Below are positions 17,618-34,240 of a stretch of 64,000 nt of DNA, piece by piece (position 1 is the first letter of the stretch; each line of letters begins with the position of its first letter). A model generated the notes under the pieces. The model searched no databases. It saw nothing but the letters and a program-made list of their open reading frames with translations, and had not been told where the DNA came from. The translations under genes and the position numbers were made by a program. This DNA is from the human T2T-CHM13v2.0 reference genome, Homo sapiens, in the NCBI RefSeq assembly GCF_009914755.1, contig NC_060931.1, one strand, 5' to 3'.

Positions 17618-17722
<105 letters not shown>

Positions 17723-17819
17723 TGAGACCAGCCTGGCCAACATAGCAAAACCCCGTCTCTACTAAAAATACAAAACTTAGCCGGACATGATGGTGGGCAC
17801 CTGTAGTCCCAGCTACTCA

Positions 17820-17951
<132 letters not shown>

Positions 17952-18184
17952 TCAGGAAAAAGCCATCAGTGTGCTCCACATAAATTCATTATCATTTTAT
18001 TTACTGAGCTAATACAATTTTTTTCAATATATATTAATACATACATAAATGTGATGGCCACTTAACACTGTGAGATTTAAAAAATACTTCATTAAAAAAC
18101 TACAAAAGGATGCATACTAAATTGTTTAACAGCAGTTATCTTTACAGAGTAGGTTTGGGGAAAGGAGGCACATTCATTTATGTC

Positions 18185-18795
18185 TTTTTTTTTTTTTTTT
18201 TCTAAAAATCATTTGGGCAATTTTATTTTTTTATTTTTATTTTTTTCTATAAGAAACTACTTTTATTTCAAAAATAAATCTTAAGACTGATATGTAGCTT
18301 CATCTATTCAGTAAACATTTGATCCAGTATCTACTATGCTGGATACCTAGCAGATACAAAGATGAATCTCATGTGGGTGGACCTTGATCTCAAGAGGCTT
18401 AGAGTCTAGAAAGACACATACATGTTACATACATATGTATACATTCCTATACATACCTACATATTACATCCTTTTTACTCTATTAAACAGGTAAAATGCA
18501 AGGGGAATTCAGAAGAGAGAAGATAGTCATTTTGGATGTGTAGTGCTGAAAGGCAGAGTGACATTATGGCTTTGGGCTCTGGAGTCAGAATGCTTGGATT
18601 CTGGCGGGGCACAGTGGCACAACCCTGTAATCCCAGCACTTTGGGAGGCAGATCACTTGAACTCAGGAGTTTGAGACCAGCTTGTGAAACATTGCGAGAC
18701 TTCATCTTAAAAATATATGTATTTTTTTTTTTTAAAAAGAATGGCTGGATTCAAATCCTGTTTTAGAATTTATTATCTTAGGGTCCTTGTATGAT
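18185..18795 (-). mobile_element. SVA 3' transduction (foreign flanking DNA with its own poly(A) tail)
   Basis: TSD TCATTTATGTCTTT at 18174-18187 and 21072-21085; poly(T) 18185-18201; AATAAA (minus) at 18222-18227. Confidence 0.85.
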
Positions 18796-21071
18796 TATTT
18801 TATTTTATTTTTTTTTTAGTATTTATTGATCATTCTTGGGTGTTTCTCAGAGAGGGGGATGTGGCAGGATCATAGGATAATAGTGGAGAGAAGGTCAGCA
18901 GATAAACACGAGAACAAAGGTCTCTGGTTTTCCTAGGCAGAGGTCCCTGCGGCCTTCGCCCTGTTTGTGTCCCTGGGTACTTGAGATTAGGGAGTGGTGA
19001 TGACTCTTAAGGAGCATGCTGTCATCAAGCATCTGTTTAACAAAGCACATCTTGCACTGCCCTTAATCTATTTAACCCTGAGTTGACACAGCACATGTTT
19101 CAGAGAGCAGGGGGTTGGGGGTAAGGTTATAGATTAATAGCATCCCAAGGCAGAAGAATTTTTCTTAGTACAGAACAAAATGGAGTCTCCTATGTCTACT
19201 TCTTTCTACACAGACACAGCAACAATCTGATCTCTCTTTCTTTTCCCCACATTTCCCCCTTTTCTTTTTGACAAAACTGCCATCGTCATCATGGCCCGTT
19301 CTCGATGGTCGCTGTCTCTTCGGAGCAGTTGGGTATACCTCCCGGACGGGGCGGCTGGGCAGAGGCACTCCTCACTTCCCAGACGGGGCGGCTGGGCAGA
19401 GGCGTTCCTCACATCCCAGACGATGGGCGGCCGGGCAGAGGCGCTCCTCACTTCCCAGACGAGGTGGCCAGGCAGAGGTGCACCTCACCTCCCAGACGGG
19501 GTGGCGGCCGGACAGAGGTGCTCCTCACCGCCCAGACGGGGTGGTGGCTGGGCAGAGGCTCTCCCCATATCCCAGACGATGGGCGGCCGGGCAGAGGCGC
19601 TCCCCACCTCCCAGACGGGGCGGCCGGGCAGAGGCGCCCCTCACCTCCCAGATGGGGCGGCCGGGCAGAGGCGCCCCTCACCTTCCAGACGGGGCGGCCG
19701 GGCAGAGGCGCCCCTCACCTCCCAGACGGGGTGGTGGCCGGGCAGAGGCGCTCCTCATTTCCCAGACAGGGCAGCCGGGCAGAGGTGCTCCCCACCTCCC
19801 AGACGGGGTGGCGGCCGGACAGAGGCACTTCTCACCTCCCAGATGGGGTGGTGGCCGGGCAGAGGCGCTCCTCACTTCCCAGATGGTGCGGCGGGGCAGA
19901 GGCACTCCTCACCTTCCAGACGGGGTGGCCGGGCAGAGACGCCCCTCACCTCCCAGACGGGGTGGCTGGGCAGAGGCGCCCACTTCCCTGACGGGGCGGC
20001 CGGGCAGAGGCGCTCCCCACCTCCCAAACGAAGGGCGGCCGGGCAGAGGCGCCCCTCACTTCCCAGGCTGGGCGGCCGGGCAGAGGCGCTCCTCACCTTC
20101 CAGACGAAGAGCGGCCGGGCAGAGGTGCCCCTCACTTCACAGGTGGGGCAGCCAGGCAGAGACGCTCCCCACCTCCCAGACGGGGCGGCCGGGCAGAGGC
20201 GCTCCCCACCTCCCAGACGGGGCGGCCGGGCAGAGGCGCCCCTCACCTCCCAGACGGGGCGGCCGGGCAGAGGCGCTCCTCACCTCCCAGACGGGGCGGC
20301 CGGGCAGAGGCGCTCCTCACCTCCCAGACGATGGGCGGCCGGGCAGAGGCGCTCCTCACATCCCAGACGATGGGCAGTCAGGCAGAGACGCTCCTCACTT
20401 CCTAGACGGGGTGGCGGACGGGCAGAGGCGCTCCTCACTTCCCAGATGGGGGTGGCCAGGCAGAGGCACTCCTCACTTCCCATTCGGGGCAGCCGGGCAG
20501 AGGCGCTCCTCACTTCCCAGATGGGGCGGCCGGGCAGAGGCGCTTCTCACATCCCAGATGATCGGCGGCCAGGCAGAGACTCTGCTCACTTCCCAGACGG
20601 GGTGGCGGGTGGGCAGAGGCTGTAATCTTAGCACTTTGGGAGGCCAAGGCAGGCGGCTGGGAGGTGGGGGTTGCAGCGAGCCGAGATCACGCCACTGCAC
20701 TCCAGCCTGGGCAACATTGAGCACTGAGTGAGCGAGACTCCGTCTGCAATCCCAGCACCTCGGGAGGCCGAGGCGGGCAGATCACCCAAGGCCAGGAGCT
20801 GGAGACCAGCCTGGTCAACATGGCGAAACCCCGTCTCCACCAAAAATACAAAAACCAGTCAGGAGTGGCAGCGCGTGCCTGGAATGCCAGGCACCCGGCA
20901 GGCCCAGGCAGGAGAATCACCGGAGCCCGAGGCAGGGAGGTTGCAGTGAGCCGAGATCATGGCAGTACAGTCCAGGCTCCGCAAGAGAGGGAGACTGTAG
21001 AAAGAGGGAGACGGAGAGTGAGAGCGAGAGCGGGAGGGAGAGAGACGGAGAGGGAGAGGGAGAGGGAGAGC
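18796..21071 (-). mobile_element. Full-length SVA retrotransposon (older, SVA_A-like)
   Basis: Read on minus: (CCCTCT)n hexamer ~20990-21071, Alu-like domain ~20616-20990, GC-rich VNTR ~19338-20615, SINE-R ~18818-19337 with AATAAA (18822-18827) and a short poly(A). Subfamily is inferred from the retained GGAGCCCGA segment in the Alu-like domain. Confidence 0.95.
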
Positions 21072-21919
21072 TCATTTATGTCTTTACAGAGAATCTATAC
21101 TGTTCATCTTTGTAAAAATGAGTTGCATTAATTTTGTAATAAAAGAAAGTTTGGAGACTATAACTTCAAAAAAGAAAAGAAATGGCCACCAACTATAAGG
21201 GGTACTGAGTAAATGAGGCAAAGGATAGGATGATTTTGAGTGTGAGGACAGTGTAGGGTTGCGTGGAGGAATTCCTGGTACAGTCCTGCATGTGAGAAGG
21301 TGGGGAAGTGTGTGTGAGGGTTGAGTCTAGGGCAATCTCTGTGTTACCCACAGGCTTGAGAGACTTAGTCCATTCTCTCCAACCTCTGTTCTACAAACTA
21401 CCAGTGGATTTGTTGTGTCATCTCAGACACACAGTATAGGAGTAAGAAGTTTGTCCTTTCTATAACAACATGGTGTCATGTCAAGAGAGCTAATTTAGAT
21501 GTATGTTTGCTGTTGTCATTAACTAGTTTGGAGACCTTAATTAGGTCCACTGAGGGGTCTACATAAGGTACCATGGATGTCTAAGATAAGTTAAACATCT
21601 GTCTTGTGTAGGGAGTATTTCCTTTTCTTTTAAATTTAAATGGGGCTGTCTCTTGTAAGGAGCAAATGTCTGGGTCAGGAACGATGTTGCAAATCAAATT
21701 ATCTATTGCTTGAATGGAGGCCTGGTTAGTAGCTAGGGAGACTAGTTCTTCCTAAAAGCTTTCTCTTCTTTCTCCCGACCCACTAAACTATAAGTCCCAT
21801 ATGAACGACAACCGTATCCTCTACCCTAGTACAATACCTGGAATATAGCAGCTACCCAATAATTAACTGAATGAATTTACAAACGATCTGAGCTAAGAAT
21901 TGTTATTAAAAGATTTTGG

Positions 21920-22226
21920 GGCTGGGCGTGGTGGCTTACGCCTGTAATCCCAGCACTTTGGGAGGCTAAGGCAGGTGGATCATGAGGTCAGGAGTTCAAG
22001 ACCAGCCTGGCCAACTTGGTGAAACCCAGTCTCTACTAAAAATAAAAAGAAAAAATTAGCTGGGCATGGCGGCGGGCGCCTGTAATCCCAGCTACTCAGG
22101 AGGCTGAGGCAGAAAATTGCTTGAACCCAGGAGGTGGAGGTTGCAGTGAGCTGAGATCACGCCACTACACTCCAGCCTGGGTGACAGAGTGAGACTATGT
22201 CTCAAAAAAAAAAAAAAAAAAAAAAA
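21920..22226 (+). mobile_element. AluS
   Basis: Full Alu; TSD aaagattttgg. Confidence 0.92.
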
Positions 22227-22579
22227 GATTTTGGTACTGAAGGTACTTGCCCAAAATCAGACTGTTAGTTTAGAACAGTCAGGGATAGTCATGACATGAA
22301 AAAATACAAAAACTATAAAGGTAATAGCCCTGTTCCTGCAGGCATTTGCTCTAATGCAGCTCTTCAGGCTGTAGCCTGGCTGCATCTATTGTTTAAACTT
22401 GTACAGTAACAAACTTCACATGAATCTGAAAAATTCAAACCATCTACAGGGTTTCTAGTGAACCAAACCCAGCCTCAGCAGCACTACAGCAGACTAACTC
22501 ATCAGGGCAAATACTTCCTGAGACCTGTGTCAGTTGGCAACTAAGCTAATTCTTTCCATAACTTTTGTTGATTTCTGCA

Positions 22580-24680: not shown

Positions 24681-24750
24681 ACTTAGAGACACAAGCACAA
24701 GATTGTCATTCACTTTTCTGCATACTTTATTTGTTACAAACATACAATTT
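24681..24750 (-). terminator. Distal PURB cleavage/polyadenylation site
   Basis: AATAAA on minus (TTTATT at 24726-24731), two upstream TGTA elements (TTGTATGTTTGTAAC) and a GU-rich downstream element (TTGTGCTTGTGTCT, ~24687-24700). Confidence 0.8.
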
Positions 24751-25930
24751 TTTTTAAATATAGACTGTAAAACTCCATTTGCAAAAGTCTATTGTAAGGA
24801 GTGCACACCAGCAGGAAGGATTCTTACATTTTTTCTCTGTGAGTTTTTCTGTCAGTTTTGCTAGTTAGTGGTAAATACGGGACCCGCCATTTTTACAGAC
24901 CAGTCTGAAGCTTCTGACTGTATTCACATTGCTCTTTTGAAGCAGCCCTGCTCCTCTCAAAATTGATCAGAATCTGAGCTTCAACCTACAGGCAGTGAGA
25001 TCAACAGCCCGTCTGGACTCTGCTTTTGAACGGTTTTCAGGAAGTGTGATTTCTGAATGGGTACTGCACTTCACAGATTTGTTTGAATTGCCCATGCAGC
25101 TCTATGTTTGTTAAAGTGCATTCTTCTTTAAAAAATAAGAGGAATAATCTTTACTCTTTAACCAAGGTACTTAAAAAAATGAACTTTTTGGTCTCTCAGC
25201 AGATATTCCCAAATTGATCCTATCACTACAAATTTTAGTGTTTTATTTACAGACATTTATAGGGTTACAGGTGGAGGGGACCTTATAAAATTAAAGGTGC
25301 AGCTTCTCTTGAAGCAGAAATCAGTTCTACAAATTCATACACAGGAATACACACTTGGTTTACAATGCATAAGCATGTGGGTATTTACACAGAGATTGAA
25401 GACATCCCCAAAAAACACATTTTAAAGTAATTTCCAACCTAAACTCTAATTGTACATCTAGATCAGGAAGCTGTCTCCTGCTATCAAGATTTGGTTTTAA
25501 TTCATTCAAATTATTTCTGTAGATTCTCTACTGGCAGGACATCAGTCCCAGCTTTGGAGTGAATAGTCTAAGAAAGCCACTGGTAGATACTATGATTGGC
25601 AGTGAAGATTCCTATAGAACGGAAAGTATGTTATCTGGAAACAGAAGACAAATGAATTTTAAAAATGATCTTGGAAAAACATCTGGATGGAGGCCCAAAA
25701 TAATAAATCCCTACTATAATTGTTTTAGAACTTCAAAAAAAGAAGTCCAGATACACTGACGATCTTAGTTACTATTCAAATATTGGTAAGTCATTGAAAA
25801 ATAACTCAGATTTACTTGTCTACCGAAACGTGCAAAACCATGGACTCTTTATAAGTACGTCCCATACTGACTTAAAGCCAGTTTCTAGACTTTTTGGTCA
25901 ACCTACTGACTTTTAGAAATTCAGAGAGTA

Positions 25931-26299
<369 letters not shown>

Positions 26300-27415
26300 T
26301 TATCAGTTCAAAATGAAACTCCCAAATTCCTACAACACAAATGTGTTTAATGATATAATCCAGTTCTTCAGTTCTCTTGGGACTCTCCCTGCAGTTATGT
26401 CTCTGAAAAAGGAATTTTACAAGAGAATAAACAAACCACTCACCATCCTATTTCTAAATATAAAGATTCTTCCAACCAGCCTGATCTTGCAACTCAGAGT
26501 TAAGACTGGGGACGAAATATTTGGCTTTAAGAAATAAGAGATGGCCTAAATGGATATTTTGGAAAAAGTTAGCTATTGAAGTGTTATTTAAGGTAAGGGG
26601 GAAAAAAGGACAAACTCATGCCTTCTGCAATATCCATCCTAGTGGACACTGAATAGGGCTATTGCTTTCTTTCCAATACTCTGGGCCCACATTTCATCAT
26701 ACTAAAAAGACATAATTAGTTTTCTTACCCATGTCAATGGATATTAGATATAACACAAGGAAAATGAAATTTGCTTCTAGACTCAAAATCTGTTGACACT
26801 TAAAGTATAATTATACTTTTTTATTAAACTGTTAGAATCATCTATGGAGAAAAATGAGTTTTAGCTTCCAATAAAGCTCTGCTCTTATTAGAAATCATAT
26901 TGAGCAGTGAAACTACCAATATGGCAGTTGCTATTCTATTGTTTTAACATGACTCTACCTATCCCAATTGGAATGTCTAATTCAAGAGACATGAGTTAGA
27001 TTTTCAAATTAAATGATTGTGAATAGAGGTGATTACACTGATGGCATATTCCCTATTTCTTTAGGAAATATAAAATACATTCATAAAGGCCTTACTTGGA
27101 TCAGGGGTACAGATATCAATTGGGAATCTCTAAGGTAATAAGTTTTCTTGATGCGATTTTATTATTTTTTCATTTTCCAAATCTAATTTTCAGTACTGAT
27201 AATTGGACAATTTTCAAGTAAGAGTCTGTTAAATCCGTCAGTAATAAAACTGAGTTTTAAGACTGAGGGCTGGGAAAGGAGACTTTAAATAGCAAAGTCA
27301 GACATATCAAAAGAAATCATTATTCAAGAGTCCAGCTATCTGCTGAAACTTCTGGGGGGCTAATACTTGAAAATTAAGGACTTTGTTTTTTCTAAGTTAA
27401 AAATGGGGGAAATGA

Positions 27416-27736
<321 letters not shown>

Positions 27737-30160
27737 GCATTTGGAATCTCAAATGGAGCATATGACACATACTTTATTCTTTTTTGTCTGTATTTTCTTA
27801 AGGTAAATGTGTTTTTTTTTTTTCTTTTTTCTTTTCTACAAACTATCTCCCGCCCTCCCCAGCCCCACCCACACACCCATTATCCAGTATACTGAATGGG
27901 AGTTGTAACTCTTTAGGAAGACAGCTAATTGATTTACAGTACTCTAAAACCAACCCTGAAAACTGATAATCTCATTCACTTACTATAACTTCAGTGCTGT
28001 AGTTGACAGAAAAGAAAAAGTTACCTTAAGGCTCAAGGGAAAGTAACTTATTAAATTGTGAATGCAGCATTATTTACTCTCCCATCCATTGGAAACTAGC
28101 AAAATGCATTCTGGATCAATAATACAAACCTTCTAACATTAGCAAAGATTTCTACTCTTCTTACACAGAGTTAGAACAATATTCATAAGCAATTATCTAA
28201 GGGAGCCTGAGAAACTATGATCCACATCACACAAAGATTTCATGTATTTCATGATCAAAAAGTGCTTTATCTTTGAGAAATGTCAGGGTTACAATGGAAA
28301 TATACAATGTAAAGTCACTTGATATTTTTTCAAGTGAAGTACAAAGTAGAAAAGGAGCAAAAAGATGGAGGCTCTGCTCTCTGAACAGGCCTTATGCATG
28401 TGACTTTTAGGGTGTACGAAATTAAAGTTGTTTTAAGAATTAAAAATAGTGGGACTTTACACCACTATATTCTAAAACCTGAGATTGGACATCAAAACAG
28501 TCAACTTTGTTATTCATCAGAGCAATTCTGATACTTCCTAAAAATATAAGATAACTCAACTGAATTAACTCCAGGGTCAAAAACATTAACTTTCCCCAAT
28601 CAAAAAGGAGACCGATCACTAACATTATACCAAGAGTGCTGCAGAAAGACAAACTCTCAGCAAATGAGTCATTTCTACATAAGCAAAAAAGTCACTTTTC
28701 TCCTTCCCTTTCTCACTGATCAAGGCCACACTATTTTCAAATGAATATCTACTGAGAGATCAGTTGTGCATTGGATAAAGTACCATAATTGGGTTAAAAA
28801 TGAAAACAAAATTTACAGTGAAGAATACTTATGTGCATGGCTTACACACTCCAGCTTCTCAATTTCATCCACCTCAAGAGCAAGATAGATGCAAAGTCAC
28901 CTTGTGTAGATTACATTCTACACCCCTGTAAAGCCAGTCAAGGTCACATTTAACAAAGCATCTTCAGCAACTACAGTGCCTGAAGTGTGCAGCCGTTTAC
29001 AGACCACTCAATATGAGGGCATTATTATAACCAGCCTCTTTTGCCCACAACCCTGCATCTTCAGATAAGACAGGATAATTGTTTTGTTTTGAGAAAACTG
29101 AAGCTTAAATCTCTTAAAAGACCTGCAATTTACTGCAAAGTAATCCAGAGGTAACAAAGGAAGCAGGAGGTTAACGGCTGCCTGCACCAAAAGCCTCTCA
29201 ATCATTTTGCAGTAAATAATTATGGAAAGTGATGTGACAAGTAGCCATGTGTGTATCACAGCTACAGTCATTTATACCACGTATATGCCTCCGATAGTTA
29301 CATAGGGTGTTTGGGTTTTTGGTTTGGTTTTCACTTTGATTTTTGGTGCCATACAGATTTATATTTTGTTCTTGTGCAGCATATGCACTGAAAAACTTGC
29401 TGCTGTTCCACTTGCTGAAATGATAGGGACAATAGAAACCAAAACCAAAACATAGAAGGAAGAGTAGTAGGATCTCTTCACAGATTTTTATTCTTTTGAT
29501 TCTGTTCCTAAAATTTGGCTTTTCACCTTTGTAACTATGGTAGTTTGGGAAACAAACCTTCTAACAATTATATGAAAAGAAGTTTTAGTTTCCTACTTCT
29601 CAGGAATATGACTATTTTGATTAGCTGGGATGTTTGCCAAGCTTAAAAAAAAAGGCTCAAAATCATTCATAGCAACAACTGAAAAACAAAAAAATTGGTT
29701 GTTTCCCATGTCTGTACAATGCCATTATCTGACTGGAATTAACAAAGACCATTTCCTTTAATAAGCTATTAATAATATTTACGAATGAATCTGTGTTTTG
29801 CAGGTTTCTATTGTCCCTAGTGACTGGAGTGAAGATCAGTGAAATGCTACAATTAATCCACAGCCTTCTGCAATCTTCCTGCAGTGGGAAGAGAGGCCAT
29901 GAACCATCCCTTGCAGGAGAAACAAACCTTAGAGATTGGTTAAGACTTAAAAACCCACCACTATGACATTACCACTTAATCTTACATAGGCAGGTCAAAA
30001 TTTTAATATAAATTACTTTTGCCAACACATAGCTTATGCATTCTTTGCTCCTTTTTTTGGAGGATTTTCAAATTGATATCTAAAGATTTACATATGATAT
30101 ATTACTGTTACATGGTCTAATGACTAAGAAAATTTCTCTGGTAACCAAAGCTGATGCCAT

Positions 30161-30213
30161 ATATGGTAGTGTTCTTGGCATATACTCTATATGCCTCAGA
30201 CCACTTCCACATT
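30161..30213 (-). ncRNA. MIR4657: miR-4657 precursor hairpin inside the PURB 3'UTR
   Basis: Minus strand reads AAUGUGGAAGUGGUCUGAGGCAU (recognised mature miR-4657, 30191-30213), followed by a complementary arm (GGCAUAUA-GAG-UAUAUGCC stem). Confidence 0.85.
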
Positions 30214-32822
30214 CTTTCTATTCAGCTAATTATAGCTTAGTAGCCACTGGTGAAGGATTGTGAAGACCCTGTCATTTCTACAGAATAGAAAGGCAAGGCT
30301 AGTTACTGCAATTCAGCCAAACAAAAAGAAAAAAGAATAAACCAACCCCTTAAAAAGGAGAGGTACTGCACCTTTGCAAAATTGAACTGGCTCACTGCAG
30401 CTGAGCAACAGAACCACCACTGAAGCAAGAAAACAAGTTGGTCTATACAAGAATTGTACATGGTTTGAAAATGAAAAAGTTACAGCAATCAACTAATAGC
30501 TGCAACTTAAATTTTCATTGCTGCCTCAGAGTTGAAACTTAAATAGTTTCTGCAAACCTAATGCTAGCTTCTCAGCTCCTTTACTAAAACTATTTAGGAA
30601 TTTGTTCTCCGCAGCAAAGAAATAGACACTCAAAACACGTAGGTAAATACAGCAGGACATTATTGAAAAACAGCTGCCTTGTAGTACAAAATACAGTACA
30701 AGTATACGGATGTCATTAAAACATCAAAAATACTATTGCTCCCATACAATTTAGGAAACATTCTTTGCAACGGAGAAAAATTTAAAAGAAAAGCTTTAAA
30801 AAAATCTGTTTAAAAATTCTACTGTGGATGATGAGAGTAGAGAAATAGTCTGAAAAGGGCACCAATGTTTGTGGCTCTTCCACTTTTTAATCTAAGATCA
30901 ACAATATTCTGCATCATAATCTATTTTTTTAAAAAAGCCTAATTTTATGTACACAATTATTTCCCGCCCTCTCAGCCACAAATACATGAAAACCTTTTTG
31001 TATATTACTCATTTCCCAATAAATACAAAAAGATTGTATAGATTGAATAATACCAAAATAAGATAATAAAAAGGATATGCAATAAATTAAAAAGGCAGCT
31101 CAAATAAGGGGCAGGCATGCAGTTTAAAAAAAATACTAAGATTGTGGAGGCGGGGTTACTTGCCTCCTGGTTGAGAAGGTGTCACACAAAGAATACCTGA
31201 AAACTTTGGAAAGAACGTTAGCTCCCATTCAATTCAAAGTTACCTAGGTCTATGACATTTCTAGGAATACCTTTTGATGGGGTGGGATTAACTTGATTAG
31301 TAAAAATCATTTCTACTGAAAATCCATTTAAAATATAGAAGAGGCGATCCTTGAAAACCCCAACTTTTATTCTTGAAAGACAGCTGGATTAACTGGCAAA
31401 AGCCAGTTTGTTGAAATTTCAAGATGGTATAAAAATGCTTCCAGGATATAGTCAGCATATTCACGTTCACTTCAGTTCCATTCACAGATGGATTTCAGCT
31501 TCCACCGGGTGCACTGCTTGAATCACTCATCCATCATTTGCCAACTCTGACTGTGAGGTACTGATACAATGGATCAAGTTCTTAAAAATTTTAAAAGAAT
31601 AAATGATGCTGGAATTCTGGACCTGAGGATCTTTAGTATTTGAACAAATCCACAGATTAAACTGAAGGTAAATTAAGACTTCAGTTTTGGTTATTTCCAA
31701 CTTTTCTGTGAGGATGTATATCCATTAAAGCTCAGGCTTATAGCCACACTGTTACTTTTGTAGGTAATCTTCAAGTTTTATGGTTTAAAATCCAGCCAAC
31801 CAGTGGCTGTAACAGCCGAATTAGCCATAATTCACTGGCTCACACAGTGGAGATCTGGCTCTCATTCATACCAAAGCATTTCTTGGTAATGACCTCCATA
31901 TTTAGAGATCAGGGGAACAACTTTAGTGAGCAGCAACCAATCCACTCAAACAGTCTGCCTTGTGCTTTATGCCTGACTTTTTCTTGTGCCTACCTCAGCA
32001 ACCCCCAATGTAAAACTGCTTTTATCTTTGAAAATTTTTTGTCAACTTTGAAACTATTTTAGTAACGGATTCTACTCCAAGCATTGCTATCTGAATCCAC
32101 TGGCATCCTGGAAAACAATTCTGCGAAGAAAAGACATTTGCCTTGGTCCAGGTTCCATGCAAAACCATTTTTTTAAAAAAATGGATCCAATTTGGTTCTG
32201 TATTCTTAGATGGCTTCTTGAAATCTTATCTTTAACCTGTTCATGATTATCCCAAGTTGCATTTCTTTTCGTGAACCTGAACCCTCAGAACTGGGTAATT
32301 GTAAAGGCCTCTCTTCTCAAGGATTCCATGAAGACCTAGATCCAAAATGCTGATTTCAATGGAGGTGAAGGGATAGACACCGCAACAGTGAGGCCTAGAG
32401 AGATCTTTTATGCCAGATTACCCAGGTGCAACCTAAATGCAACTGTTATCAATGGTCTGGGTAACTTGGACATGTTTCTTGCCCTGGATGTGCAAGGATC
32501 TATTCCCTCCAGGGATTATCCTGATGGGTTTACGAACCTCAGTTGAGAAACAACAGAAGCTGAGACAATTTTACGCAGGTGAGGAGATGCTGTTTTCCTC
32601 TTTGCAGGTTGCTGTCAGTTCCTTGGAACTTGACTGCTTTTCTCAAGTTGTCCGTCACTGTTCTCTTACGATTATTTCTCTTAACTGTGTTACGTTTTGT
32701 TTTTTCCCTCTGCGGCCTCCCTTGCTCCCTCTCCACTAGCTCACTGGGGATGAGCAGGAAAGGGAATTCTCTAGCCAAGGGGATGGTGGTTGGGTGGAGG
32801 CCTGTAGGGGAAGCTGCCCGTT

Positions 32823-33761
32823 TCAATCCTCATCCACCTCCTCACCCTCTGACTCTTCGCCGCCGCCGCTGCCCCCACCACGTCGCTCATAAAGCTTATC
32901 CCTCTGTCGTTCCTGGATTTCTTTCATCTCATCCGCATACCGGCAAAAGGCGCCTCCGAACTTGCCCCAGGCTTTGAAGGGTACGGTGATGGCATTGCGG
33001 TAGGACGGCTTCACCTCGCTCACTCGCAGAAACACCCCGTATTTGTTGCAGCCCACATCGAAGAAGAAGCGCTTGGAGTCCACGGTGATGGAGGTGCCCT
33101 CCGGGAGCTCTCCATACAGGCCGCCCCCTGGGCCCCCGGCGCCGCCTCCCGGGCCGCCTGCCAGCTCGTCGTCCTCGCCTCCGTAGTCGTCTATGAGCTT
33201 CGCCAGCGCGTCGCGGAACTCGATGAGGCCCTGCGCAGGCAGCGCGATGGTCTGGCCGCTCTGCAAGCCGCCCGGCCCGGGGCCCGCGCCGAAGCCGCCA
33301 CCGCCGCGGTTGACCGTTTGGCGGATGCGCAGGAAGCGGCCGCGCTGGTTCTCCTTGAGGTCCAGGTAGTACTTGCGGTTCTCACGCACCAAGAATTCGC
33401 TCTTGAGCGCGCGCCGCGGCCCGCCGCCCTCCTCGGCGCCCGCCGCCAGCTGCTCGGGGCTGCTAGGGCCCAGCTGCGCGTAGTGTTCTATGAAGTCGCC
33501 CAGCGAGTCGCGGAACTCGGCGGCCACCGCCATGGACAGCGTGAGGCGGCTCTTGGAACCGCCCGCGCCCACCTCGGCGATCTTGAGGAAGCGGCCCTTG
33601 GCGTTCTGCTTCACATCTAAGTAGAAGCGCTTGTTCTGGATGTCCAGCCGCTTCGAGGCCAGCTCCTGCGTCTCTTGCTCGCCGCCGCCGCGGGACGCGG
33701 GCTGGAACCCGCACGGCCCACCGCCGCCGCCGCGCTCGCTGCCGCTGTCGCCGTCCGCCAT
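32823..33761 (-). CDS. PURB: Transcriptional regulator Pur-beta (purine-rich element binding protein B), intronless, 312 aa
   Basis: [18 protein letters not shown]...EEVDED with three PUR repeats ([21 protein letters not shown]; [28 protein letters not shown]; [25 protein letters not shown]), Gly-rich linkers and an acidic C-terminus. Strong Kozak context AAGATGG, with an in-frame TAG two codons upstream. Confidence 0.99.
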
Positions 33762-33859
33762 CTTCTAGGCCGCCGCCTCGCCGCCACCGCCCGCCGCGCT
33801 CGCGCCCCCGCCCTCCGGCTCGCGCTCCGGGGCCCCCCAGCCTCGCCCGCCCGGCTCGC

Positions 33860-33904
33860 TCACGCGCTCCCGCCGCTCATCGCCGGCCGCCGCCGCCCCC
33901 CCAT
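33860..33904 (-). other. Upstream ORF in the PURB 5' leader (MGGRRRPAMSGGSA*)
   Basis: ATG at 33904 in context GAGGCGATGG, second in-frame ATG at 33880, TGA at 33862-33860. Out of frame with the main CDS. Confidence 0.55.
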
Positions 33905-33909
33905 CGCCT

Positions 33910-34240
33910 CCGCGCCCCGCCCCCGCGACTTCCGTGCAGCCCTAGCCACTTCCGGCGCGCGATTTCCCGTGAAGTCACTCCGTCCCGCCCTCCGCGGCCT
34001 CGCGGCCGGAAGCGCCGCGGCGGCGTGGCGCAGAGGGGTGACGTCAGGGGCCGCGCCGGGCGGGCGGCAAGCTGAGAGTAGGCTAGTGTTACTGCTCGGT
34101 TTCTAGCCCTGGGGACTTGCCAGCCTTAGCGTGACTCAGCCGCCCGCTGCGTCTGTCTACGCGCCTCTTCCCGTGACACTTTTACTTTAGACTCCGGTGT
34201 CGTCCACTTCCCTCCTTCTCGCTTCCGGGGCGTTAGCTGA
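33910..34240. promoter_or_regulatory. TATA-less, probably bidirectional PURB core promoter
   Basis: ETS/GABP-type sites ACTTCCG 33928-33934, ACTTCCGG 33948-33955, CCGGAAG 34006-34012 and CTTCCGG ~34222; GC box ~33915; full CRE TGACGTCA 34039-34046; AP-1/ARE TGACTCAGC 34132-34140. Confidence 0.75.

What the first reader, a model, noticed from the sequence alone, without database searches (positions are those of the whole stretch)
18174..21085. SVA insertion carrying a ~600-bp 3' transduction from another genomic locus
Seen: no TSD abuts the SVA poly(A) at ~18796. Instead the 14-mer TCATTTATGTCTTT occurs right after the hexamer end (21072-21085) and again at 18174-18187, where it is followed by a second poly(T) (18185-18201) with a minus-strand AATAAA ~20 nt away (18222-18227). 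The intervening DNA is a mosaic of L2-like, (CATA)-rich and MIR sequence, the MIR carrying a FLAM. The MIR is cut off at the SVA tail and does not resume on the other side, whereas the outer flanks (~18050-18187 and 21086-21150) read as one continuous old L1M-like 3' end. Established: L1-driven TPRT of SVA read-through transcripts mobilises 3' flanks. Inference: 18202-18795 was copied from a source SVA elsewhere and is a lineage tag for an active master element, possibly with sibling insertions.
Basis: partly seen in the sequence, partly recalled or inferred. Interest (0 to 1): 0.8.

Follow-up and report, generated by a model that had tools for sequence, protein, structure and literature searches.

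The report
SVA carrying two stacked 3' transductions
A full-length SVA retrotransposon downstream of PURB carries pieces of chromosomes 6 and 14 picked up in two successive jumps, an ordinary but tidy example of a known process.

Summary
A minus-strand, full-length SVA (18818-21071) and about 630 bases of extra DNA are enclosed by an exact 14-base target-site duplication (18174-18187 and 21072-21085), which ends in a second A-run.

The extra DNA comes from two places, not one.
- 18247-18802 (556 nt) has one other copy in this genome, on contig C6 (chr6, about 34.76 Mb). It is 96% identical. An old dispersed repeat runs unbroken across the junction there, and no SVA is present.
- After a 14-nt A-rich tail remnant, 18198-18232 matches 35 of 35 bases at a single-copy site on C14 (chr14, about 22.76 Mb). 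That site also has no SVA.
- Each piece ends 15-24 nt after an AATAAA.

The best reading is a serial ("concatenated") L1-driven 3' transduction, chr6 to chr14 to chr7, with both source copies absent from this assembly.

About 4% divergence from the chr6 donor points to an old event, roughly 10-20 million years by my rough arithmetic, not a currently active master element. No sibling insertions exist in this genome.

3' transduction, concatenated transductions, ultra-short TSD-sized transductions and missing sources are all in print for SVA. Interest is low. The orthologous empty site in other primates could not be checked with these tools.

The parts
21072..21085 (.). Target-site duplication, the copy at the SVA 5' end
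   Evidence: Exact 14-mer. There are only two copies in the window, and 0 of 100 shuffles gave 2 or more. It directly abuts the hexamer end.
18818..21071 (-). Full-length SVA body. It comprises the hexamer array (21003-21070), the Alu-like region (about 20607-20996), the VNTR (19337-20606), the SINE-R (about 18819-19330) and its own AATAAA near the 3' end.
   Evidence: TRF period 6 x 11.7 copies and period 37 x 33.5 copies. (similarity to neighbouring Alus, in plus-strand sense and therefore antisense to the SVA). (SINE-R 96-97% identical to 39 scored copies of 2595 candidates). (3' end view).
18803..18817 (-). The SVA's own A-tail (15 nt, one T interruption). It would have been carried over from the lost chr6 source copy.
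   Evidence: C6 homology ends at 18802.
18247..18802 (-). Transduction 1: 556 nt copied from C6:34759711-34760272. It contains a CATA-rich stretch, an Alu-type monomer and part of an old dispersed repeat. Its AATAAA (18267 down to 18262) lies 15-17 nt before the end of homology.
   Evidence: the only other copy in the genome; 97% over the non-Alu 354 nt. (534 matches, 22 mismatches, 2 indel events). (boundaries; C6 continues without an A-run).
18233..18246 (-). A-rich tail remnant (14 nt, two T interruptions) between the two transduced pieces. It would be the poly(A) of the lost chr14 intermediate.
   Evidence: It matches neither C6 nor C14.
18198..18232 (-). Transduction 2: a 35-nt exact match to C14:22758452-22758486 (converted by me's L012 1489-1523's locus offset). 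The unambiguous core is 18202-18220. It includes an AATAAA native to C14 (18227 down to 18222), 20-24 nt before the final A-run. Its size is that of a source target-site duplication.
   Evidence: one other exact 19-mer hit in 3.1 Gb; backwards control 0. (35-nt exact extension). (the C14 site is single-copy). (chance expectation 0.059 for the 19-mer and 2e-10 for the 35-mer).
18188..18201 (-). Final poly(A), read as a T-run on the plus strand. Its last 4 bases could equally be C14-derived, and its first bases merge with the T's of the target-site duplication.
18174..18187 (.). Target-site duplication, the copy at the 3' end of the composite. On the priming (plus) strand the site reads CTTT/A, close to the L1 endonuclease TTTT/A preference.
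   Evidence: The endonuclease preference is established knowledge (recalled).

Best explanation
This is a serial (concatenated) 3' transduction carried by a full-length SVA that the L1 machinery mobilised three times.

Step 1 (inferred). An SVA sat on chr6 (C6, about 34.76 Mb), inserted in an old dispersed repeat at a TTTT/A-type site. A transcript ran through the SVA's own AATAAA and tail. It was cleaved 15-17 nt after a downstream AATAAA, which added 556 nt of chr6 flank.

Step 2 (inferred). That RNA inserted into an A-rich site on chr14 (C14, about 22.76 Mb). A transcript of this copy ran through the new tail. It was cleaved 20-24 nt after an AATAAA that is native to the chr14 target, adding 19-35 nt, about the size of its own target-site duplication.

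Step 3. That RNA inserted by target-primed reverse transcription at a CTTT/A site, 3.6 kb downstream of the PURB 3' end. This gave the 14-bp duplication seen now.

Shown directly: the composite structure, both donor matches, the signals and the duplication. Inferred: that SVAs once sat at the chr6 and chr14 sites. Neither is there in this assembly, so both source copies were presumably never fixed and were lost.

The event is old. The chr6 piece differs from its donor at about 4% of sites.
For: - One exact 14-bp duplication encloses the SVA plus all the extra DNA. No duplication abuts the SVA's own tail.
- Window 18247-18802 has a single other genomic copy, on C6. The search found 2 candidates and scored both. 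Divergence is 22 mismatches in 556 aligned bases.
- At C6 the sequence continues on both sides without an A-run. An old dispersed repeat is unbroken across the junction: 32 other loci match at 72-87%, and 11 of those 32 cross the junction. C6 is therefore the original and the window holds the copy.
- The C6 break lies 15-17 nt after an AATAAA.
- The SVA-proximal C6 boundary reads TTTT/A on the priming strand, as expected if a source SVA's tail abutted it.
- Window 18198-18232 matches a single-copy C14 site at 35 of 35 bases. The chance expectation is 0.059 for the 19-mer core and 2e-10 for the 35-mer.
- The serial model predicts that the 19-nt core should abut an A-rich L1-type target on its SVA-proximal side. 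C14 natively has that tract, including the AATAAA.
- A-tracts separate SVA from piece 1, piece 1 from piece 2, and piece 2 from the duplication. This is the anatomy described for 3' and serial transductions by Hancks and Kazazian 2016 (PMC4859970, passages).
- Kirby et al. 2025 (PMC12593883, passages) report 27 concatenated SVA transductions, ultra-short transductions equal to the source's duplication, and origins without an SVA.
Against: - No SVA sequence is present within 1.5 kb of either donor site. The only matches of the donor loci to the SVA body are ordinary Alu-to-Alu-like hits; C14 gives none. The two source copies are therefore inferred, not seen.
- No sibling insertion carrying either tag exists in this genome, so the chain rests on one element.
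- The orthologous pre-insertion site could not be examined, and the flanks have no paralogues to stand in for it.
- Both inner junctions lie in A-rich sequence. Reverse-transcriptase template switching guided by microhomology would also favour such sites.
- The tail remnants carry T interruptions, so the exact limits of the chr14 piece (19 to 35 nt) are ambiguous.
Confidence: 0.85

Rival explanations
1. Template-switch chimera. During one or two retrotransposition events, L1 ORF2p began on a polyadenylated chr14 (and/or chr6) transcript and jumped to the poly(A) end of the next RNA, finally the SVA RNA. No SVA would ever have resided at chr6 or chr14.
For: - Both donor sites lack an SVA.
- All the junctions are A-rich, which would favour microhomology-guided switching.
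- Kirby et al. 2025 propose template switching for one SVA-pseudogene chimera (PMC12593883, passages).
Against: - Kirby et al. inferred switching from the absence of a poly(A) between the pieces. Here A-tracts separate every piece.
- It needs a chr14 RNA copied for only 19-35 nt, plus two independent switches.
- The SVA-proximal chr6 boundary is a TTTT/A site and the chr14 boundary is a long native A/T-run. Prior insertions at those sites predict exactly this.
- The 19-35-nt piece fits the reported class of ultra-short transductions equal to the source's duplication.
Confidence: 0.08
2. Single-step 3' transduction. All of 18202-18795 was copied in one read-through from one source locus.
For: One duplication and one terminal A-run enclose everything. 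Most of the segment does come from one locus.
Against: - C6 homology stops at about 18247. C6 continues there with unrelated sequence.
- The outer 35 nt match a different chromosome exactly.
- An internal A-rich tract separates the two pieces.
Confidence: 0.03
3. Two independent neighbouring insertions. A retrocopy of a chr6 transcript inserted at chr7, and an SVA later, or earlier, landed exactly beside it.
For: The chr6 piece has its own AATAAA and A-rich end.
Against: - Each insertion would carry its own duplication. None flanks the SVA alone or the chr6 piece alone.
- The only flanking repeats of 10 or more bases within 200 bp are the 14-mer, which encloses both, and an 11-mer that is not next to any A-run.
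Confidence: 0.02

Closest known systems
L1-mediated 3' transduction by SVA elements (reference-genome survey of Xing et al. 2006, recalled and not read here; polymorphic survey of Kirby et al. 2025, PMC12593883, passages read)
   Same: Read-through of the element's own AATAAA. Extra unique DNA lies between the element's tail and a second poly(A). One target-site duplication encloses the whole. The donor is traceable by sequence search.
   Different: This is an old, evidently fixed-age insertion (about 4% diverged from the donor), not a polymorphic young one. The source copy is absent at the donor.
Serial or 'concatenated' 3' transductions (Hancks and Kazazian 2016, PMC4859970; Kirby et al. 2025 report 27 SVA cases)
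   Same: Pieces from two different loci are stacked 3' of the element, oldest innermost, with A-tracts between them.
   Different: Both intermediates are missing from the assembly. The second piece is only 19-35 nt, and its AATAAA is native to the A-rich target site.
Ultra-short 3' transductions that equal the source element's target-site duplication (Kirby et al. 2025)
   Same: The chr14-derived piece is the size of a target-site duplication and starts in the A-rich target.
   Different: It cannot be confirmed against a source copy, because none survives in this genome.
Template-switch chimeric retrocopies (the SVA-CKS1B pseudogene case in Kirby et al. 2025)
   Same: Composite of SVA plus sequence from elsewhere, within one duplication.
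   Different: That case lacks a poly(A) between the pieces and has a 5'-truncated partner. Here every junction has an A-tract, and each piece ends at a normal distance from an AATAAA.

Membership tests
SVA retrotransposon | 5' (CCCTCT)n hexamer array | tested here: met
   Period-6 array at 21003-21070, 11.7 copies. It abuts the duplication.
SVA retrotransposon | Alu-like region antisense to the element | tested here: met
   Window 20607-20996 aligns in plus-strand sense with the flanking Alus and with Alus of locus L002. It is therefore antisense to the minus-strand SVA.
SVA retrotransposon | GC-rich VNTR of 35-50-bp units | tested here: met
   19337-20606, period 37, 33.5 copies, 82% matches.
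SVA retrotransposon | SINE-R module followed by AATAAA and poly(A) | tested here: met
   18819-19330 is 96-97% identical over its full length to 39 scored copies of 2595 candidates. AATAAA and the A-tail are seen. Descent from HERV-K was not tested. The subfamily (A to F) was not assigned, because no consensus library is held.
L1-mediated 3' transduction | Non-element DNA between the element's tail and a second poly(A), all inside one target-site duplication | tested here: met
L1-mediated 3' transduction | The transduced DNA maps to a unique donor locus that lacks a poly(A) after the match and has a poly(A) signal before the break | tested here: met
   For C6: with the AATAAA 15-17 nt before the break. 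For C14: with the AATAAA 20-24 nt before the break.
L1-mediated 3' transduction | A source element present immediately upstream of the donor sequence | tested here: not met
   No SVA lies at C6 or C14 within 1.5 kb. The literature accepts such cases as lost or low-frequency sources (Kirby 2025), so this lowers certainty and does not exclude membership.
L1-mediated 3' transduction | Empty orthologous site in an outgroup, with a single copy of the duplicated target | not testable with these tools
   No primate genomes are held. The flanks are single-copy, so paralogues cannot substitute.
Serial (concatenated) transduction | Two or more pieces from different loci, separated by an A-tract, with the inner piece older | tested here: met
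   The C6 piece and the C14 piece are separated by the 14-nt A-rich remnant at 18233-18246.
Template-switch chimera | No poly(A) between the joined pieces (the criterion used by Kirby et al. 2025) | tested here: not met
   A-tracts are present at 18803-18817 and 18233-18246.

The most novel reading that the evidence does not exclude
The element is the only surviving record of a chain of at least two short-lived SVA source copies (chr6, then chr14) in a great-ape ancestor. Each retrotransposed before being lost. In the second step, the A-rich L1 target site itself supplied the AATAAA that ended the next transcript, so insertion into A-rich targets would automatically seed TSD-sized transductions. 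Through incomplete lineage sorting, one of the lost sources might still be present in gorilla or orangutan.
Probability: 0.35. Interest if true: 0.3.

Novelty: new member of a known kind. Interest (0 to 1): 0.22.

Why it matters
It matters little beyond correct annotation. About 590 bases next to this SVA are chr6- and chr14-derived copies, not native chr7 sequence. This affects repeat annotation, read mapping and orthology calls near the PURB 3' end. The stacked tags give a small, clean lineage record (chr6 to chr14 to chr7) for an old SVA lineage. They also give two precise sites where ape assemblies could reveal lost source copies. The mechanism, the concatenated form, TSD-sized transductions and missing sources are all already described.

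Tried and rejected
- **Flank continuity through paralogues.** Both flanks are single-copy by the genome search, so the 'continuous L1M-like 3' end' claim stays untested.
- **Homology of 18202-18246 to C6.** MAFFT found no convincing alignment, and by eye only about 10 of 16 bases match. I rejected this in favour of the exact C14 match.
- **A repeat family behind the 19-mer.** The five one-mismatch loci share nothing with C14 around the site. In the blastn, L013 and L015 hit only an Alu piece at L012 903-962. The C14 site is single-copy.
- **The 61-nt gapped match.** C14 aligns to window 18172-18232 at 84%, which reaches into the T-run and the target-site duplication. Beyond the 35 exact bases I judged this low-complexity noise, at roughly 10 of 16 by eye.
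- **An alternative duplication.** An 11-mer is shared by both flanks (18139 and 21081). I rejected it as the duplication because no A-run abuts it.
- **Splicing from a distant SVA into the chr6 piece.** Rejected, because the SVA's own A-tail sits at the junction and no pyrimidine tract precedes it (by eye).
- **Literature that could not be used.** Xing et al. 2006 is not held. The one supplement of Chu et al. 2023 is a PDF that I listed but did not open. I therefore do not know whether this element is already listed in a catalogue.
- **Subfamily assignment (SVA_A to F).** Not possible without a consensus library.
Full report
**1. Observation**

The window's stretch 17900-21300 holds a minus-strand SVA. 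Its parts are as follows.
- The hexamer array is at 21003-21070 (period 6, 11.7 copies), and the VNTR is at 19337-20606 (period 37, 33.5 copies, 82% matches).
- The Alu-like part is at about 20607-20996. It aligns in plus-strand sense with the neighbouring Alus, so it is antisense to the SVA.
- The SINE-R part, 18819-19330, is 96-97% identical over its full length to the 39 other copies scored, out of 2595 candidates.
- Its own AATAAA and a 15-nt A-tail (18803-18817) close the element.

The expectation is 0.02, and 0 of 100 shuffles gave two matches. The right copy abuts the hexamer end. The left copy is followed by a T-run reaching 18201. The minus-strand AATAAA at 18222-18227 is present. Nothing resembling the 5' flank abuts the SVA's own tail. 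The core observation is therefore confirmed.

**2. Donor of the main piece**

I searched the window's own genome (3.1 Gb, 24 contigs) with 18202-18795. This gave the window itself, one long match at C6:34759709-34760272 (94% over query 44-594), and 41 short matches at 71-90% identity. All 41 lie within query 393-516, which is an Alu-type monomer (40 of 2088 candidates scored). Repeating the search with the non-Alu 354 nt (18247-18600) gave exactly 2 candidates, both scored: the window itself and C6 at 97%. The segment therefore has one other copy in this genome and no siblings.

A global alignment of 18247-18802 against the C6 stretch gives 534 matches, 22 mismatches (15 transitions, 3 in CpG context) and 13 gap columns in 2 events. 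That is 3.96% substitution divergence. Seven of the 22 mismatches lie in CATA, TA or T-run low-complexity sequence.

**3. Which copy is the original**

At C6 the sequence continues on both sides without any A-run and without an SVA. Across the SVA-proximal junction, a 201-nt C6 query matches 32 other dispersed loci at 72-87% identity. All 34 candidates were scored, the other two being C6 itself and the window. Eleven of the 32 cross the junction position. An old interspersed repeat is thus unbroken at C6.

The window holds only the part up to the junction. The continuation is nowhere in the window: blastn at E up to 10 gave a best E of 0.059, with nothing next to the insertion. C6 is therefore the donor and the window holds the copy.

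**4. The outer 45 bases are not from C6**

Homology to C6 stops at about 18247. Beyond it lie a patterned T-rich tract (18221-18246), 19 bases of complex sequence (18202-18220) and then the terminal T-run. The 19-mer has one other exact hit in the genome, at C14:22758456-22758474. There are also five one-mismatch hits, and none, exact or one-mismatch, for the backwards control. The one-mismatch loci share nothing else with C14 around the site.

The exact match extends to 35 bases, window 18198-18232. C14 is single-copy around it: 2 candidates, itself and the window. My composition-based chance expectation is 0.059 for the 19-mer and 2e-10 for the 35-mer. C14 natively carries the A/T-run and the AATAAA next to the 19-mer, and it has no SVA.

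**5. Anatomy in SVA sense**

Reading in the SVA's sense, the order of parts is:
- target-site duplication;
- full-length SVA;
- 15-nt SVA tail;
- 556 nt of chr6, ending 15-17 nt after an AATAAA (18267 down to 18262);
- 14-nt A-rich remnant (18233-18246);
- 19-35 nt of chr14, ending 20-24 nt after the chr14-native AATAAA (18227 down to 18222);
- final A-run;
- target-site duplication.

On the priming strand, the chr6 boundary reads TTTT/A, the chr14 boundary lies in a long T-run, and the chr7 site reads CTTT/A. All three fit the L1 endonuclease preference (established knowledge, recalled).

**6. Mechanism**

The most economical reading is serial read-through transduction, chr6 to chr14 to chr7, each step using the next downstream poly(A) signal.
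- Hancks and Kazazian 2016 describe the expected anatomy: two A-stretches, with the source's duplication inside the transduced part. [quoted passage not shown]
- Kirby et al. 2025 report, for polymorphic SVAs, 27 cases of transductions from several source loci on one element. [quoted passage not shown]
- The same paper infers template switching where no poly(A) separates the pieces. Here A-tracts separate all the pieces.

Evidence against my reading: neither source SVA is seen, there are no siblings, and the A-rich junctions would also suit microhomology-guided switching. I put serial read-through at about 0.85 and template switching at about 0.08.

**7. Age (inference)**

Divergence between the two copies is 3-4%. 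At roughly 1.0-1.5e-9 substitutions per site per year (recalled rates), that gives about 10-20 million years. This fits the 3-4% distance of the SINE-R from its nearest relatives. It does not fit an active master element. The subfamily could not be assigned.

**8. What stays open**

- The empty orthologous site in other primates.
- The L2 and L1M labels, and the continuity of the outer flanks. Both flanks are single-copy.
- Whether this element is already in the Xing et al. 2006 catalogue, which is not held, or in the unopened PDF supplement of Chu et al. 2023.

**9. Verdict**

This is a real and well-supported feature of an ordinary kind. The refinement is that it is two-step, old, without siblings, and with both sources missing from this assembly.

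Noticed in passing
window 18139-18149 and 21081-21091: An 11-mer (TCTTTACAGAG) is shared by the two outer flanks. The right copy overlaps the end of the target-site duplication. In the reconstructed empty site the two copies would be a direct repeat with starts 43 bp apart. It is not next to any A-run, so it is not an alternative duplication. It is either chance or a small pre-existing local repeat.
   Followed up: partly
window 18803-18817: The SVA's own tail, read with the first bases of the chr6 piece, looks like a short TAAAA repeat in SVA sense. This suggests microsatellite-like slippage at the old tail, so the last base of chr6 homology (18802) is ambiguous by a few bases.
   Followed up: no
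window 18645-18646 versus L002 about 1902-1911: The Alu-type monomer inside the chr6-derived piece lacks 10 bases that the C6 donor has. The A/T-rich run after it differs in length by 3 bases. These are the two indel events between copy and donor.
   Followed up: partly
window 17646-17949 and 21920-22227: Two full Alu elements in plus-strand sense flank the SVA composite at a distance of about 230 bp on the left and 830 bp on the right (families D3 to D8). They are unrelated to the insertion.
   Followed up: no
window 18174-21085 relative to PURB (24709-33943, minus strand, hub table): The composite lies about 3.6 kb downstream of the PURB 3' end, on the same strand as the gene. None of the RefSeq functional elements listed by the hub overlaps it.
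   Followed up: no
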